From a virus: a stretch of 64,000 nt of DNA. Shown in pieces: positions 8,700 through 13,293 of the stretch (the first letter of the stretch is position 1; the number at the start of each line of letters is the position of its first letter). The DNA lies in IMG/VR virus record IMGVR_UViG_3300017917_004266, positions 1 through 64,000 of that record, one strand, 5' to 3'. Below the pieces are notes generated by a model. The model was not told the DNA's origin. It did not search any database and saw nothing but the letters and a program-made list of their open reading frames with translations. Made by a program: the position numbers and the translations under genes.

Positions 8700-11387
8700 A
8701 TGGCAGATTTTAATGTAGATGTTAATTTGCCTAGTACGATTAGCGTGGATGTAACATCACCAACTCAAGCTTTAGCTACTAATATTTCAATTCCTGGACC
8801 TCAAGGACCAAGAGGAGAAAAAGGTAATCCAACAAGCATTAATAATTTAATAGCAGAAAATATAATAATAACTGGCACAGATGGTAATATAATAACAACT
8901 AGTGGGGTTAATACAATTTTTATTTCTGGCAATAGTGGATATTTTCAGTCAGCAGTAAATACATTAACAACTAATTTAAATAGTACTGGTTCATCTTTAA
9001 ATAATTCAATAAATAATTTAAGTGGATTGTTTACTGTATATACTGGAAATTTAGATAATACTTATGCTACAGATGCTCAATTAAATTCAACTGGTTCAAA
9101 TTTAAATAATAAAATAACTTCATTGAGTGGAACATTAACCTCTACATATGCAACAATATCAAATCTAGCCGCGACAGGCTCCACTTTAACTTCTAATATA
9201 AATTCTCTTAACTCTGCTTTTACTGGATTTACTGGAAATCTTGATGCAACATATGCAACAGACACTCAACTTGCTAATACTGGTTCAATATTAAATACAA
9301 AAATAGATAATTTAAGTGGTTATGTAAATTCTCAAAATTTGTCAATTTCTAATAACTTAGTTTCTACTGGATCAACTCTTCAAAGTAATATAAATACAGT
9401 TTCATCTAATTTAATTCTTACAGGAAATTCTTTAAATTCAAATATATCTTCATTGAGTGGTACTTTGGTAAATAATTATTATCTTAAATCAAATCCTAGT
9501 GGTTTTATAACGGGAATTAATCTTTCTAATTATGTAACAAAAACAGATGGTCAATTTAACAATCGTCCAATAGTTAATGGTACTGGCATTTTGCTAAGTG
9601 GAGAAGCTTATTCTTTAAATAATCCATCTGGATTCATAACTGGAGTAGACCTTACATCTTATGTTACGATAAGTGAAACTGGTAATTTTTATTCAAATTC
9701 TAATCCAAGTGGATTTATTACATCTTCAAATGTAGCTTTAACTTATGCTACGATTAACAATCTTAGTTCTACTGGTAATACTTTACAAACTCAAATTAAT
9801 AATCTTGGAAATACATACGCAACAACAACAAATCTCATATCAACTGGATCAACTTTAAATAGTAGTATCAATTCTTTAAGTGGCGTATTAACATCTAACT
9901 ACGCAACTATTAATAACTTAACGAATACTGGTAGCACATTACAAAATAATATAAATTCACTTAGTGGCAGTTCAGTTTTACTTTATGGAGATCAAAGTAT
10001 TGGTGGAACGAAAACTTTTAGAGATAAAGTTTATATTAATAGTCTTTATGTTACTGGCACAGAAACAATTTTAAATACAACAAACAATAATATAGCAAGT
10101 CCATATTTACTTTTAAATCTAACTGGTGGATTAACTGACGGAGGAATTTTCTTTGTTACTGGAAGTGGATTAACTGGGATAAATGATACTGGAGTTATAT
10201 TTGGTTTTGATAATGTAACAAAAACTTGGCATTTTGGTCAAGGTACAAGATTAACAGACATTTCTACTCTTGATGAAGTAATGGGTTATCACGATCTTAC
10301 TGGTTATAGTGGTTATGCTAATAATATTTTTAGTACAATAACAAATTTAGCAAATACAGGATCTACATTACAAACTAATATAAATACAATTTCATCAAAT
10401 TTAATAAATACTGGAAGCGTATTAGATGGAAAAATAAGTTCACTTAGCGGTACTTTAACTTCTACATATGCCACAATAAATAATCTTGCTTCGACTGGAT
10501 TGACTTTACAAACAAATATAAATAACCTCAGTGGTTATATAAATTCTTCAAGTAGTAATATAGTATTTACTACTGGAAATCAAAATATATCTGGAACTAA
10601 AACTTTTATTAATAATCTAGAAATTCAAGGCACAGGAATCTTTAATGCAATAGACCTTAGCAATATTAGTGACTTTCAATTCTCAGGAACAAATATAAAT
10701 TTAATAGATAGTAATATTTATGTATCTGGTAATGGAACTATTTACATTTCTGGAAATCCTGTATTAACAGGAGTTAATTTATCTAATTACGCAACCATTA
10801 CTAATCTTGCTTCGACTGGAAGTACGTTAGAAGACAAGATAGGTTCGCTAAGTGGTGCGCTAACGAATAATTATGTCACAAAATCTAATGGACAATTTAA
10901 TAATCGTCCAACAGTAAATGGTACGGGAGTATTACTTAGTGGTGAAGCTGCTGGAGGTTCTGTAACTTTACCAAGCGGAATACTTTATACTTCTGGAACA
11001 CAAACTATTAGTGGATCTAAAACTTTTACAAGCACGGGCATATTTAATTCTGGAATTGATTTAAATAATTCTAATTTAATTAATGTTACTCCAGAAATAA
11101 TTAATGTTTCATCTAATTTTAATATTTCTGGAAATTATAGTAGTAGAATGATTATGGCGAATTCAGCAGCCGAAATTACAGGAACAATAGTTAGCGGAAA
11201 TCCTTTAGGGTTTAATACAACAATTATACAAATTGGTTCAGGGCAAATTTTAATTACTGGATTAGGAAATGGAATAATTATAAATGAATACGCAAGTCAA
11301 TATAGAACAGCAGGAAGATTTGCTGCAATATCTATTCTTCATACTGGAAACAATGGTTATATAATGTACGGAAATACAGGGCCATGA
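8700..11387 (+). CDS. Long fibre protein with coiled-coil repeats
   Basis: Short collagen-like GPQGPRGEKG, about 8 YAT-x-x-(N/Q)L-x-x-TG-x-x-L repeats, 3 Q-x-I-x-G-x-KTF motifs, duplicated GQFNNRPxVNGTGxLLSGEA. Confidence 0.75.
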   Translation: MADFNVDVNLPSTISVDVTSPTQALATNISIPGPQGPRGEKGNPTSINNLIAENIIITGTDGNIITTSGVNTIFISGNSGYFQSAVNTLTTNLNSTGSSLNNSINNLSGLFTVYTGNLDNTYATDAQLNSTGSNLNNKITSLSGTLTSTYATISNLAATGSTLTSNINSLNSAFTGFTGNLDATYATDTQLANTGSILNTKIDNLSGYVNSQNLSISNNLVSTGSTLQSNINTVSSNLILTGNSLNSNISSLSGTLVNNYYLKSNPSGFITGINLSNYVTKTDGQFNNRPIVNGTGILLSGEAYSLNNPSGFITGVDLTSYVTISETGNFYSNSNPSGFITSSNVALTYATINNLSSTGNTLQTQINNLGNTYATTTNLISTGSTLNSSINSLSGVLTSNYATINNLTNTGSTLQNNINSLSGSSVLLYGDQSIGGTKTFRDKVYINSLYVTGTETILNTTNNNIASPYLLLNLTGGLTDGGIFFVTGSGLTGINDTGVIFGFDNVTKTWHFGQGTRLTDISTLDEVMGYHDLTGYSGYANNIFSTITNLANTGSTLQTNINTISSNLINTGSVLDGKISSLSGTLTSTYATINNLASTGLTLQTNINNLSGYINSSSSNIVFTTGNQNISGTKTFINNLEIQGTGIFNAIDLSNISDFQFSGTNINLIDSNIYVSGNGTIYISGNPVLTGVNLSNYATITNLASTGSTLEDKIGSLSGALTNNYVTKSNGQFNNRPTVNGTGVLLSGEAAGGSVTLPSGILYTSGTQTISGSKTFTSTGIFNSGIDLNNSNLINVTPEIINVSSNFNISGNYSSRMIMANSAAEITGTIVSGNPLGFNTTIIQIGSGQILITGLGNGIIINEYASQYRTAGRFAAISILHTGNNGYIMYGNTGP

Positions 11388-12337
11388 TAGCATCTCAAGC
11401 AGGTATTATTAGTTCTCGAAGAAAAAAAATAAATCCAACGGAATTTAATAATTTTAGATATACTAAAGTAGAATATAATAATCCAGTATATTTTACGCAA
11501 AGTCCACCTGGAGCCAAATATAATTTTACTGCAAGACATATTTATAATTATAATAAAAATACCAATTCTTTTACTTTTTTGGGAGTACAAAAAGCTCAAA
11601 GTTTAAAAAGAATCAAAAGTTATATATCTGAATTTAATTTTTACGGATCAACTCCTAGTAGTTTAGATGGAGTTTATACAAGAGATAATATAAATAGCGC
11701 ATATTTCTGGAAAGATGGAATTCCAAACTCAACACAATTTATTCAAAATAATGGAGGTACAGATTGGGATTTTATAGATAACAATAATATTTTTGCACAA
11801 TTTCATGCAGGTACAAACCAAGCTTTTGGTATAGATAATATCGCAGAAGGATATGAATTAAATTATCCTAATATAGGTTATGCTGAAGGTGTAGTATTAG
11901 ATAATTCAACTCTTAATAGCATTAATCAAAATAGATTATATAATAATACTAATCCAGATATTGACAGAGAACAATTTGTTCCAGATGTTAATTTTAATAT
12001 CAATACATGTAATATTTTTGATAAAAAAAATCTTGCTAATAATCAAAAAGTTTTTATTGATGTAAGATGGATAATGTTTGCAGATGGAAAAAGAGTAAAT
12101 GAAATTTATGAATATTATGATCCAGATGAAGAACAATGGATTAGAGTTATTTGGTGGTTAGATAGTACTGGAGGAGGTCTTATGATGAATGATAAAAAAG
12201 GTCATATTTACCGCGCAGGAGTTATTATAAAAGATAATATTATAGATAATATGATTTATTTTAATGATCTTGCTGCAAATAATAGCATAATTCGATCAAT
12301 GCAACAAAAACATAGTTTTGTTCAAGTTGGAATTTAA
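11384..12337 (+). CDS. Hypothetical, probable fibre-associated protein
   Basis: ATGA-coupled to the fibre gene; Asn-rich. Confidence 0.5.
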   Translation: MIASQAGIISSRRKKINPTEFNNFRYTKVEYNNPVYFTQSPPGAKYNFTARHIYNYNKNTNSFTFLGVQKAQSLKRIKSYISEFNFYGSTPSSLDGVYTRDNINSAYFWKDGIPNSTQFIQNNGGTDWDFIDNNNIFAQFHAGTNQAFGIDNIAEGYELNYPNIGYAEGVVLDNSTLNSINQNRLYNNTNPDIDREQFVPDVNFNINTCNIFDKKNLANNQKVFIDVRWIMFADGKRVNEIYEYYDPDEEQWIRVIWWLDSTGGGLMMNDKKGHIYRAGVIIKDNIIDNMIYFNDLAANNSIIRSMQQKHSFVQVGI

Positions 12338-12343
12338 GGAGGT

Positions 12344-12565
12344 ATTTTATAAGTTAAAAATAAAAATTTGCCTGTGTTTGGGTGAACTCGGTGAAGTCTT
12401 AACAGATAATGCTGATGATAATACCGAGCCAAGTTAAGGGCCATCCCTTAAAAGGTGTAGAGACTACTGGAGAGAAAATGGATTCTCTTAATAACCAGCA
12501 AGAGCGCCCAATAGCTAAATGCTAAAGATATAGTCCAACCCTTTAAGAAATTAATGGAAAAGTTG
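12344..12565 (+). ncRNA. Group I intron/ribozyme (subgroup IA-like, no ORF), intergenic
   Basis: P3 TTGGGTG(12378-84)/CGCCCAA(12505-11); P4 CTCGGT/ACCGAG; P6a TTAAGGG/CCCTTAA; R = GGTGTAGAGACTA; P7.1 CTGG/CCAG with AGAGAA/TTCTCT; P8 TAGC/GCTA; S = AAGATATAGTCC; P9 TTAA-GAAA-TTAA; P9.0 AAC/GTT then G. P1 AGGT/GCCT with U.G at 12343/12370. Splice sites are inferred. Confidence 0.85.
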
Positions 12566-12634
12566 GCTGCCTGTGCGGCATCGGTAAAACAACTTAAATA
12601 TTTATATTGATATAGTGTATAAACTATATTATAT

Positions 12635-12643
12635 AGTGTAATA
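12635..12643 (+). promoter_or_regulatory. Putative late promoter motif AGTGTAATA
   Basis: 8 nt before ATG 12652; partial tandem copy ATATAGTGTA at 12610-12619. Confidence 0.6.
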
Positions 12644-12651
12644 ATTATTAT

Positions 12652-13293
12652 ATGACAATAAAAATAGTAGATATAGCAGATGAATTATATCGCGAATTAG
12701 GAGAACCAAGCGATATTAGTATACCTAGTATAGCTTTTTGGCTAAGAACTAATTTAGGTAAATTAAATATTCATCTTAATAAAAAATACTCTATAAATAC
12801 TCTAGATTTAGAAATAGATGCTATTAGTCCAGATTCATTTACCATAGCAGAAAAAACAATTTTTAAAAAACTTTATAACATACATTATTATGATAGACAA
12901 ATTATTAAATTAATAGGAAAATCTAATGCTTTAAATTTAATCAATCAAGATACTTCTACTAGTGGAGAAAATATTACAACTGGATCAGCTAATTCTGATA
13001 CTATTGAAATTTCAGAAAATGGATTTTCATATAGAAAAACAAATAGCGAAAGTACAAGTCAAATTTATAAAAGAGCAACAGATGCGATTAAAGCTAATAC
13101 TCAATTTGTAAGACAATTAGGTTTAAATTTTGTTGAATTAAAAAAAGCAGAGGTAGAAGAATTGAATCATTTAACTAATGATTACAACTTAAATGAAGTG
13201 CATCCAGTCCAAATTGTTGGAGATGATGTCTATGAAGAAGGAAATAGACCTTATAATTACAATTCTTATATTAGAAACTTAGAGAATTTATAA
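12652..13293 (+). CDS. Putative head-tail adaptor
   Basis: First gene of the neck block; helical; assignment mainly by synteny. Confidence 0.45.
   Translation: MTIKIVDIADELYRELGEPSDISIPSIAFWLRTNLGKLNIHLNKKYSINTLDLEIDAISPDSFTIAEKTIFKKLYNIHYYDRQIIKLIGKSNALNLINQDTSTSGENITTGSANSDTIEISENGFSYRKTNSESTSQIYKRATDAIKANTQFVRQLGLNFVELKKAEVEELNHLTNDYNLNEVHPVQIVGDDVYEEGNRPYNYNSYIRNLENL

What the first reader, a model, noticed from the sequence alone, without database searches (positions are those of the whole stretch)
12330..12600. Stand-alone, ORF-less group I ribozyme that interrupts no gene
Seen: the only GC-richer intergenic stretch holds a complete group I core (P3, P4, P6, P7 with G-binding site GAGACTA/TAGTCC, P7.1/7.1a, P8, P9 with GAAA loop, P9.0 AAC/GTT plus G) in ~220 nt, with no P2 and no homing endonuclease. 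The best local P1 (AGGT 12340-43 paired with GCCT 12370-73, extended by TTTTAT/ATAAAA) puts the 5' splice site 6 nt after the stop of ORF 11384. Known: phage group I introns normally interrupt conserved CDSs (nrd, thy, pol, terminase, lysin) or tRNA/tmRNA. Inference: intact pairing without a host gene suggests a function, such as processing the late mRNA or making a small RNA or circle. With omega-G at 12565 the ligated exons form GGUGCUGC-cugu-GCGGCAUC, an 8-bp hairpin across the junction (5 bp unspliced), inside an outer AAGUUG/CAACUU helix. The exons may therefore be an unrecognised structured RNA.
Basis: partly seen in the sequence, partly recalled or inferred. Interest (0 to 1): 0.9.

Follow-up and report, generated by a model that had tools for sequence, protein, structure and literature searches.

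The report
Guide-first group I ribozyme between phage genes
A real, strongly conserved self-splicing-type RNA enzyme sits between two phage structural genes and interrupts neither. Its guide sequence pairs with a site downstream of the enzyme, so it most likely cuts the late messenger RNA, and may release a 20-base RNA ring, instead of joining two exons.

Summary
The group I core at 12367-12565 is real: RF00028 scores 64.6 bits against a cut-off of 50. It is found only when a short stretch is scanned. It holds no ORF of 60 aa or more and interrupts no gene.

It is absent from most relatives, so the proposed exon ligation and 8-bp junction hairpin are not supported.

In 24 distinct related phage elements the guide just 5' of P3 (UUUGCC 12367-72, wobble G12370) pairs with a downstream site (GGU|AAA, 12583-88). 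The U.G wobble is invariant. The flanking pairs covary: +1/-1 is A-U, C-G or G-C in 24 of 24.

The 3' splice site (12565|12566) therefore lies before the 5'-type site (12585|12586). This is a permuted, "guide-first" layout. I predict G-dependent cleavage at 12585|12586, and possibly back-splicing of a 20-nt circle.

In one sub-family the cut falls 0-12 nt before the next gene's AUG.

No RNA data could be obtained, so catalysis is inferred. Two earlier follow-up notes of this scan describe the same layout on other genomes; this window adds a minimal subtype.

The parts
12367..12372 (+). Guide (internal guide sequence) UUUGCC; G12370 is the wobble G. It lies 8 nt before P3, with no P1 hairpin and no P2 in between.
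   Evidence: Pairs with 12583-88. Covaries with the downstream site across 24 members. Duplex with the extension is -9.1 kcal/mol.
12378..12557 (+). Catalytic core: P3 12378-84/12505-11, P4-P6 domain about 12387-12456, P7 12460-66/12531-36 (bulged A12461), P7.1 12467-98, P8 12513-23, J7/9 AAC 12537-39, P9 12540-57 (GAAA loop).
   Evidence: RF00028 64.6 bits. 92-100% identical among W-type relatives while flanking coding DNA is 62-81%. P6a covaries.
12562..12565 (+). P9.0 3' strand GUU (pairs with AAC 12537-39) plus omega-G12565. Predicted 3' splice site is 12565|12566.
   Evidence: The rule 'J7/9 complement followed by G' picks one G in 19 of the 23 members the script reached. Covariation: AAC/GUU, GAC/GUC, GA/UC, GAU/AU, ACG/GU.
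12560..12565 (+). Helix X, 5' strand AAGUUG. It overlaps the P9.0 strand and omega-G.
   Evidence: Pairs with 12590-95. Present in the local MFE fold. An equivalent helix 2-5 nt after the substrate is found in 17 of 20 members, with compensatory changes (AAGUUG/CAACUU, AUGUUG/UGACAU, ACGUCG/UGGCGU, AAAAGUC/GGCUUUU, AUGUGC/GCACAU).
12566..12585 (+). Linker between the two splice-type sites (20 nt). It is the predicted circle if the second step occurs.
   Evidence: Bounded by omega-G12565 and U12585. The equivalent linker is about 40-80 nt with GNRA-loop hairpins in B-type relatives.
12566..12579 (+). Inner hairpin GCUGC-CUGU-GCGGC. The stem is hypervariable and the loop conserved.
   Evidence: Three of 5 pairs change on both sides. 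Pair 215-224 shows 5 pair types in 9 sequences. 95.5% of cells are paired.
12568..12575 (+). Copy of the guide (UGCCUGUG, identical to 12369-76). It can pair with the substrate GGUA as a decoy.
   Evidence: The MFE of the isolated 3' domain uses UGCC/GGUA (-10.3 vs -9.3 kcal/mol for the hairpin fold). The substrate is predicted paired with probability 0.85. GCC is kept in 7 of 9 W-type sequences.
12583..12588 (+). Substrate strand GGU|AAA. Predicted cleavage between U12585 and A12586.
   Evidence: U.G invariant in 24/24. The +1/-1 pair is canonical in 24/24 with three types. The -4/+3 pair is canonical in 18/24 with three types. It lies at a fixed place, 47-51 nt after P7', in all W-type, L020 and two immuto-type members (L002, L013).
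12590..12595 (+). Helix X, 3' strand CAACUU. It contains AAC and so mimics J7/9.
12340..12343 (+). Not part of the conserved element.
   Evidence: Not conserved in L001, L027, L004, L017, L018 or L030.
12629..12642 (+). GTGTAAT promoter-like motif 10 nt before the ATG of ORF 12652.
   Evidence: The motif recurs on the coding strand 6-25 nt before many ORF starts. In L004 and L005 a copy sits 10-13 nt before the guide.

Best explanation
This is a group I ribozyme with its splice-site elements in reversed order ('guide-first').

Layout:
- The RNA enters the element at the guide (UUUGCC, G12370), which runs straight into P3.
- The intact core follows and ends with P9.0 and omega-G12565.
- Next comes a 20-nt linker (hairpin 12566-79).
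- Only then comes the strand that pairs with the guide (GGU|AAA, 12583-88), forming a P1 helix with a U12585.G12370 wobble.

Predicted reaction:
1. Free guanosine or GTP bound in P7 attacks after U12585. This cuts the late polycistronic RNA between ORF 11384 and ORF 12652 and leaves the G on the downstream piece.
2. Helix X/X' (12560-65 with 12590-95) hides omega-G and the P9.0 strand until that cut releases X'.
3. P9.0 then forms, omega-G docks, and U12585 may attack 12565|12566. This would close the 20-nt linker into a circle and leave the upstream mRNA ending in the folded ribozyme.

What is shown: the core, the layout, and covariation of P1, P9.0, X/X' and the hairpin. What is inferred: catalysis, the order of steps, the circle and the biological role.

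Likely role: self-processing of the structural-gene transcript. In B-type relatives the cut creates a near-leaderless 5' end for the next virion gene. In this window it more likely sets the 3' end of the upstream message, because ORF 12652 has its own promoter-like motif.
For: 1. Core. RF00028 scores 64.6 bits here and 76.9 bits in Flavobacterium phage immuto. The core is 92-100% identical among nine W-type relatives whose flanking coding DNA is 62-81% identical.

2. Guide with downstream substrate, 24 distinct members.
- The U.G wobble is invariant.
- Guide/substrate types are UUUGCC(U/A)/(A/U)GGU|AAA, UUGCCAC/GUGGU|AG, GGUCC/GGAU|C, GGCCC/GGGU|C, AUGCCC/GGGU|A and CGCCC/GGGU|G.
- The unforced +1/-1 pair is canonical in 24/24 (A-U 13, C-G 10, G-C 1).
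- None of 2000 partner shuffles reaches the observed pairing.

3. The site keeps its place. It lies 2-5 nt before X' in 17 of 20 members. In B-type it lies 0-12 nt before the ATG of a phrog_5838 virion protein.

4. No upstream P1. There is none in six of nine W-type members. The B-type GG codons vary freely.

5. Standard introns pulled out by the same DNA pattern (in tRNA genes, psbA and other coding sequences) keep a P2 hairpin right before P3. This family does not.

6. P9.0 plus omega-G covary. The inner hairpin covaries.

7. In L004 and L005 the GTGTAAT promoter-like motif sits 10-13 nt before the guide, so no 5' exon would be transcribed with it.

8. All 8 loci recovered through the B-type upstream protein carry the ribozyme. 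That is not the sporadic pattern of a mobile intron.

9. Engineered RNAs with this layout do circularise: 'self-targeting and splicing' constructs (PMC10457212; abstract). Permuted group II ribozymes make circles predicted at 15-86 nt (PMC8637638).
Against: - There is no experimental or transcript evidence.
- P1 is short (6 bp here). For each single sequence it is not better than shuffles (p 0.04-0.9). The case rests on position and covariation.
- The site was chosen using a 3-nt match to the guide, so pairs -2 and -3 are met by construction.
- Within the W-type the three central P1 pairs never vary.
- Nearest-neighbour folding predicts the substrate is mostly sequestered by the local guide copy.
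- No P10-type pairing for the second step was found.
- A 20-nt circle containing a 5-bp hairpin may be strained.
- Near-identity of the core, including its loops, among divergent phages could reflect recent lateral spread rather than selection for this function.
Confidence: 0.55

Rival explanations
1. It is an ordinary self-splicing group I intron in an untranslated spacer. The 5' splice site is after U12343 and the 3' splice site after G12565. Splicing joins non-coding flanks, perhaps bringing AAGGAGGU next to a GUG minigene.
For: AGGUA/UGCCU can pair and is extended by UUUUAU/AUAAAA (-6.3 kcal/mol). Omega-G12565 is well supported.
Against: The upstream pairing is missing in L001, L027, L004, L017, L018 and L030 and in half of the B-type members. 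The family lacks the P1-P2 region that standard relatives have.
Confidence: 0.1
2. The downstream guide complement is a regulatory mimic, not the substrate. It, or the local guide copy, holds the ribozyme in an off state. Or it provides an off-pathway GTP attack site, as I recall from memory for the C. difficile c-di-GMP-dependent ribozyme, while the productive reaction (3'-splice-site hydrolysis, or action on another RNA in trans) lies elsewhere.
For: Two mutually exclusive pairings exist: X/X' against P9.0, and the guide against the guide copy for GGU. In L023 the start-codon region repeats the guide (AUGCCCUA).
Against: No alternative substrate is conserved. A guide of 4-6 nt is too short for a specific trans target. 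No aptamer or other Rfam family lies next to the element.
Confidence: 0.15
3. It is a catalytically dead relic of an intron. It is kept as a stable RNA fold (for example a 3'-end protector or a protein-binding site), or it is simply hitch-hiking.
For: It has no homing endonuclease and no exons. P8 is only 3 bp. A structured 3' UTR could be useful without catalysis.
Against: All catalytic-core features are kept: the P7 G-site with its bulged A, J8/7, and omega-G with covarying P9.0. So is a guide/substrate pair with an invariant U.G wobble, which only matters for chemistry.
Confidence: 0.1

Closest known systems
Phage group I introns with P7.1/P7.2 (T4 td, nrdB and nrdD type; Rfam RF00028)
   Same: Same catalytic core and P7.1 insertion, GAAA L9, and P9.0 plus omega-G. 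Close sequence relatives of this core are true introns in tRNA genes, psbA (Synechococcus phage S-SRM01) and other coding sequences.
   Different: There is no P1 hairpin or P2 before P3, no interrupted gene and no homing endonuclease. The guide's partner lies 3' of omega-G.
Engineered 'self-targeting and splicing' and cis-splicing circRNA constructs (PMC10457212, PMC11417360) and permuted intron-exon designs
   Same: Same order: guide, ribozyme, omega-G, insert, then a target U paired to the guide. In those constructs G attack at the target, followed by attack on the omega-G junction, gives a circle.
   Different: Those are man-made Tetrahymena or Anabaena derivatives with long inserts. This one is natural, has a 20-nt insert, and has an X/X' helix competing with P9.0.
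ND5-717 back-splicing group I intron of corallimorpharian mitochondria (PMC6545197)
   Same: A natural group I ribozyme acting on a permuted precursor through a circular exon intermediate.
   Different: There the permutation comes from where the transcript of a circular genome begins (a break in P8), and real ND5 exons are joined. Here the DNA itself encodes the reversed order and no gene is restored.
Circularly permuted group II ribozymes (PMC8637638)
   Same: Splice sites in reverse order, separated by a short, poorly conserved linker that is released as a 15-86 nt circle. The role is unknown.
   Different: A different ribozyme class and chemistry (branching). They are bacterial and plasmid-borne, not placed in phage structural operons.
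Lariat-capping (GIR1) ribozyme
   Same: A group I-derived ribozyme that cuts 3' of its own core to make the 5' end of a downstream mRNA (function as summarised in PMC8637638).
   Different: GIR1 has lost P1, uses branching next to omega-G and has a remodelled core. There is no GIR1 match here; only RF00028 matched.
C. difficile c-di-GMP-II allosteric group I ribozyme (PMC9481103; details of the alternative GTP site are from my own memory of Lee et al. 2010, which is not held in the library)
   Same: A bacterial group I ribozyme in a non-coding leader that controls a downstream gene rather than repairing one. It also has a second G-attack site near the start codon.
   Different: It keeps a normal upstream 5' splice site and an aptamer. 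Neither is present here.

Membership tests
Group I catalytic RNA (Rfam RF00028) | Covariance-model score at or above the gathering cut-off over the full model | tested here: met
   64.6 bits against 50, model positions 1-253. Missed by the default filters on the 64-kb scan.
Group I catalytic RNA (Rfam RF00028) | P3-P8/P7 pseudoknot core with a G-binding P7 (bulged A) and J8/7 | tested here: met
   P3 12378-84/12505-11 and P7 GAGACUA/UAGUCC are read in the sequence and aligned by cmscan. They are invariant in 9 relatives.
Group I catalytic RNA (Rfam RF00028) | Omega-G preceded by P9.0 | tested here: met
   AAC 12537-39 / GUU 12562-64 plus G12565. The rule picks a unique candidate in 19 of 23 members, with compensatory changes.
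Self-splicing group I intron (canonical) | P1: the 5' exon end, upstream of the core, pairs with the guide through a U.G wobble | tested here: not met
   The upstream pairing is present only in this sequence and a few others. It is absent in six of nine W-type members and is not constrained in B-type.
Self-splicing group I intron (canonical) | Interrupts a gene whose exons are restored by ligation | tested here: not met
   ORF 11384 has its own stop and ORF 12652 its own start. The 3' flank is non-coding, with an indel and stem covariation. The same holds in all relatives.
Self-splicing group I intron (canonical) | G-dependent transesterification | not testable with these tools
   Needs in vitro transcription or RNA reads.
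Permuted / back-splicing group I ribozyme | A guide-substrate P1 with a U.G wobble lies 3' of omega-G, so the splice sites are in reverse order | tested here: met
   G12370.U12585 with flanking pairs. Covariation in 24 members. Fixed position relative to X'.
Permuted / back-splicing group I ribozyme | A circular product made from the segment between the sites | not testable with these tools
   The predicted 20-nt circle is 12566-12585. No RNA data.
Lariat-capping ribozyme (GIR1) | Match to the GIR1 model; loss of P1 with a DP2-DP2.1-P10 junction | tested here: not met
   The E-value scan up to 10 lists only RF00028 as significant. A P1-type helix is present.
c-di-GMP-II riboswitch-ribozyme | An adjacent c-di-GMP-II aptamer | tested here: not met
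   No riboswitch family matched in 12200-12700 at E up to 10.

The most novel reading that the evidence does not exclude
These phages encode a natural back-splicing group I ribozyme as a fixed part of their structural operon.
- An X/X' helix hides omega-G until G-dependent cleavage at the downstream P1 releases it.
- P9.0 then forms and the 20-nt (here) to about 80-nt linker is closed into a circular RNA.
- The message is thereby split into an upstream mRNA capped at its 3' end by the ribozyme fold and a downstream mRNA that starts with the added G. In B-type relatives that start lies 0-12 nt before the AUG.
- The ribozyme would then be a promoter-independent generator of near-leaderless mRNAs in phages that otherwise appear to make leaderless transcripts from GTGTAAT promoters.
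Probability: 0.35. Interest if true: 0.9.

Novelty: new variant of a known kind. Interest (0 to 1): 0.8.

Why it matters
Group I ribozymes are known in bacteria and phages almost only as introns that repair the gene they interrupt. A conserved, DNA-encoded version with reversed splice sites would show three things:
- that the fold has been recruited for mRNA processing;
- that it is a group I counterpart to the circularly permuted group II ribozymes;
- that the engineered 'self-targeting' circRNA designs have a natural equivalent.

It also gives a directly testable case of ribozyme-made mRNA ends, including near-leaderless starts, in phage late gene expression. A cultured relative is available: Flavobacterium phage vB_FspM_immuto with host Flavobacterium sp. 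LMO8.

On the practical side, such elements are annotated as small hypothetical proteins and are missed by default Rfam filters in AT-rich genomes.

Tried and rejected
Searches that found nothing or could not run:
- The whole-window Rfam gathering scan found nothing. So did a 6.9-kb E-value scan of L001. Both are filter misses, not absence.
- The genome contigs pattern scan found no cellular copies.
The narrower A3 and A4 worked.
- PHROGs and Pfam give nothing for ORF 11384, ORF 12652 or their neighbours. The exception is BppL_N in ORF 8700.
- No homology was detected between the immuto-type/L020/L026 upstream proteins and the W/B upstream protein. 'Always after the same gene' therefore holds only for W- and B-types (hhalign 96.5%).

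Readings considered and rejected:
- A coding 3' exon. The three frames after 12565 give 6-14 codons. W and L001 differ by an indel and by paired stem changes.
It depends on the unsupported upstream splice site.
- G12562 as omega-G, by analogy with 'AAUG|U' in standard relatives. I gave this up in favour of G12565 once the P9.0 covariation was tabulated.
- An intrinsic terminator after the ribozyme. There is none on the + strand, though immuto-type relatives have one after X'.

Limits of what was tried:
- Per-sequence significance of P1 against shuffles is weak.
- MAFFT puts X' of the L017 type one column out of register, so X/X' was counted by script, not by the pair-count tool.
- The papers by Lee et al. 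2010 and Chen et al. 2011 are not held.
Full report
**Observation**

The stretch 12330-12600 holds a genuine group I core. Scanning 12200-12700 against Rfam gives RF00028 at 12310-12557 on the + strand. The score is 64.6 bits (gathering 50), E is 3.4e-16, and the whole model is matched. The search of the window's own 93-kb virus record finds the same single hit.

The default whole-window scan returned nothing. A 6.9-kb scan of a near-identical relative also failed. The speed filters lose this AT-rich RNA, so absence of a hit would have been misleading.

GC rises to 0.36-0.40 here against about 0.25 around it.
- P3: 12378-84 with 12505-11
- P7: GAGACUA 12460-66 with UAGUCC 12531-36
- P7.1: 12467-98
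- a short P8: 12513-23
- P9: 12540-57, with a GAAA loop
- J7/9 AAC 12537-39 facing GUU 12562-64, followed by G12565

Only 36-39 aa ORFs overlap the element. ORF 11384 (317 aa) stops at 12335-37 and ORF 12652 starts 87 nt after G12565.

**Relatives**

A DNA pattern from P7/P7.1 was run against viral contigs and metagenome contigs. A shorter pattern was also run. Protein-guided searches with the upstream gene followed. Together these gave 24 distinct elements with the same layout:
- "W-type": the window, L001, L027, L004, L005, L017/30, L018, L029
- L020
- "immuto-type": cultured Flavobacterium phage vB_FspM_immuto (L002, RF00028 76.9 bits), L013, and perhaps L026
- "B-type": L006, L008, L009, L014, L023, L025, L028, L035, L043-45

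Two further B-type members, L078 and L090, turned up later. They bring the total to 26 but are not in the 24-member pair table.

The same patterns also pulled out ordinary introns in tRNA genes, in psbA of Synechococcus phage S-SRM01 and in other coding sequences. These serve as controls.

None was found in 185,579 bacterial and archaeal genomes.

In W- and B-types the element follows a homologous gene (hhalign probability 96.5%, E 8e-10; alignment). All eight loci recovered through the B-type upstream protein carry the ribozyme. It therefore looks like a fixed feature rather than a sporadic mobile intron.

Among W-types the core is 92-100% identical, while the flanking coding DNA is 62-81% identical.

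AGGU 12340-43 can pair with GCCU 12370-73. However, six of nine W-type relatives have no upstream U.G-centred pairing at all within 130 nt.

In B-types the equivalent GGAGGU is a Gly-Gly codon pair. It reads GGU, GGA or GGG with no change in the guide.

The 3' flank is not coding either. W and L001 differ there by an indel and by paired stem changes. The proposed exon ligation, the 8-bp junction hairpin and the 'SD plus minigene' idea therefore have no support.

**What the guide pairs with**

The nucleotides just 5' of P3 are complementary to a site downstream of the core in every member. No P1 hairpin or P2 intervenes, unlike the control introns, which have a GNRA-capped P2 at that position.

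| Members | Guide | Downstream site |
|---|---|---|
| Window | UUUGCC 12367-72 | GGU\|AAA 12583-88 (U12585.G12370 wobble) |
| Other W-type | UUUGCC(U/A) | (A/U)GGU\|AA |
| L020 | UUGCCAC | GUGGU\|AG |
| immuto-type | GGUCC(U/A) | (A/U)GGAU\|C |
| Most B-type | GGCCC | GGGU\|C |
| L023, L043, L044 | AUGCCC | GGGU\|A |
| L045 | CGCCC | GGGU\|G |

In the table of 24 members the wobble is invariant. The +1/-1 pair, which was not used to choose the site, is canonical in 24/24 with three pair types. The -4/+3 pair is canonical in 18/24 with three types. None of 2000 shuffles of partners reaches the observed pairing.

There are caveats. Pairs -2 and -3 are satisfied by the way the site was chosen. 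Each helix alone is too short to be significant. Within W-types the central pairs never vary. The argument therefore rests on covariation between subtypes and on position:
- The site lies 47-51 nt after P7' in all W-type, L020 and two immuto-type members (L002, L013).
- It lies 2-5 nt before a conserved helix strand X' in 17 of 20 members.
- In B-types it lies 0-12 nt before the ATG of a large virion protein of phrog_5838, for example GGGU|CAAUGG and GGGU|AUGCCC.

**The 3' splice-site elements are kept**

I applied the rule 'two or three bases complementary to J7/9, followed by G'. It picks a single G in 19 of the 23 members the script reached, with compensatory changes: AAC/GUU, GAC/GUC, GA/UC, GAU/AU, ACG/GU.

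The 3'-type site (12565|12566) therefore precedes the 5'-type site (12585|12586). The two are separated by 20 nt. This linker contains a 5-bp hairpin (12566-79, loop CUGU) whose stem is hypervariable with compensatory changes. Three of five pairs change on both sides, and one pair shows five types in nine sequences. In B-types the linker is about 40-80 nt with one to three hairpins, several of them GNRA-capped.

**Helix X/X'**

The strand AAGUUG (12560-65) contains the P9.0 strand and omega-G. It pairs with CAACUU (12590-95), four bases after the predicted cut. The helix is in the local MFE fold and recurs with compensatory changes across the family.

X' contains AAC and so mimics J7/9. This makes X/X' and P9.0 mutually exclusive.

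My inference is that X/X' keeps omega-G out of the G-site for the first step. The first cut then frees X', which allows P9.0 to form and omega-G to dock for a second step.

**Mechanism proposed**

1. Guanosine or GTP attacks after U12585. This splits the late transcript and leaves the G on the downstream RNA.
2. Possibly, U12585 then attacks 12565|12566 and closes the 20-nt linker into a circle. The upstream mRNA is left ending in the ribozyme fold.

The layout is exactly that of engineered 'self-targeting and splicing' circRNA constructs (PMC10457212, from its abstract). It parallels the natural circularly permuted group II ribozymes, whose circles are predicted at 15-86 nt (PMC8637638). The one natural back-splicing group I intron reported, coral ND5-717 (PMC6545197), differs in two ways: its permutation arises from the transcript, and it joins real exons.

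**Role**

In B-types the cut would produce an mRNA that begins with the added G plus 0-12 nt before the AUG.

This fits a feature of these genomes. The motif GTGTAAT recurs on the coding strand before ORF starts, often only 6-10 nt before the ATG. That suggests promoter-driven leaderless messages, though the motif's function is inferred, not shown. In L004 and L005 the same motif sits 10-13 nt before the guide, so the ribozyme would begin its own transcript with no 5' exon at all.

In this window the cut is 66 nt before ORF 12652, which has its own GTGTAAT motif. No terminator follows the ribozyme. Here the likeliest role is to set the 3' end of the ORF 11384 message and to uncouple it from what follows.

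**Open points**

- The linker carries a copy of the guide (UGCCUGUG 12568-75, identical to 12369-76). This copy can pair with the substrate. Nearest-neighbour energies slightly favour this decoy fold (-10.3 vs -9.3 kcal/mol) and predict the substrate paired with probability 0.85 in the isolated domain. It may be a switch or an accident.
- No P10-type pairing was found.
- Near-identity of the core, including its loops, among phages with saturated flanks may indicate recent lateral spread.
- No RNA data were obtainable, so catalysis is inferred.

**Earlier notes of this scan**

Two follow-up notes on other genomes (e1-5318501, e1-5318461) read B-type elements in the same way. They are not independent evidence. 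I re-derived the layout here on my own set of sequences, and took from one of them only the lead to the coral paper.

**Verdict**

The best reading is a guide-first (permuted) group I ribozyme that processes the structural-gene transcript. My confidence is 0.55 for guide-directed cleavage and about 0.35 for the circle.

Noticed in passing
window 1095, 3806, 8337, 12636, 18342, 35605, 40395, 41659, 48964 (+ strand); L004, L005, L001, L017: GTGTAA(T), usually preceded by an AT-rich run, recurs on the coding strand before ORF starts. Distances fall into two classes: 6-10 nt to the ATG, or about 21-25 nt with an AGGAAAA-type stretch in between. It looks like a phage promoter that would give leaderless or very short-leader mRNAs.
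   Followed up: partly
L057 and L061 (viral contigs 3300032317_000216 and 3300010334_006999): A related core (same P7/P7.1) has a different closure. The roughly 20 nt just 5' of P3 pair perfectly with a stretch about 115 nt after P7'. The two helices differ between the loci by compensatory changes, and no U.G wobble is seen. This may be another non-intron layout.
   Followed up: no
L009 and L078 (both on IMGVR_UViG_3300007214_000017, 148.8 kb): One phage contig carries two guide-first ribozymes. Each follows a paralogue of the upstream gene and precedes a paralogous virion gene. L078 has a very compact linker with a single GCC-GUUA-GGC hairpin.
   Followed up: partly
L002 2496-2630 (MW353175.1 145086-145220, immuto26A_226): The 44-aa 'hypothetical protein' annotated in Flavobacterium phage immuto lies wholly inside the ribozyme core (RF00028 76.9 bits). 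It is probably a spurious gene call.
   Followed up: partly
window 12566-12579 and the same columns of alignment A1: The linker hairpin stem has five different sequences in nine relatives whose ribozyme cores are 92-100% identical. The loop CUGU and the top G-C/C-G pairs stay fixed. The reason for this local hypervariability is unknown.
   Followed up: partly
window 12336-12341; L001 3959-3964; L017-type about 45 nt before P3: An AAGGA/AAAGGA block is kept 30-45 nt upstream of the guide in W, L001 and L017-type relatives, just after the upstream stop codon. It is absent in L004 and L005, where the GTGTAAT motif takes that place. In the window it extends to a perfect AAGGAGGU with no start codon behind it.
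   Followed up: no
window 8700-11387: The 895-aa ORF upstream of ORF 11384 has a BppL_N (lower baseplate protein N-terminal) match at residues 622-636 (E 2.6e-10). The ribozyme therefore sits in the baseplate / receptor-binding part of the structural module, as in phage immuto, where it lies two genes after a tail fibre gene.
   Followed up: no
window-wide Rfam scan; L001: Infernal's default filters lost a 64.6-bit RF00028 match in the 64-kb gathering scan and in a 6.9-kb E-value scan. It appears only when about 500 nt are searched or through the genome search. AT-rich phage ribozymes are likely under-reported.
   Followed up: yes
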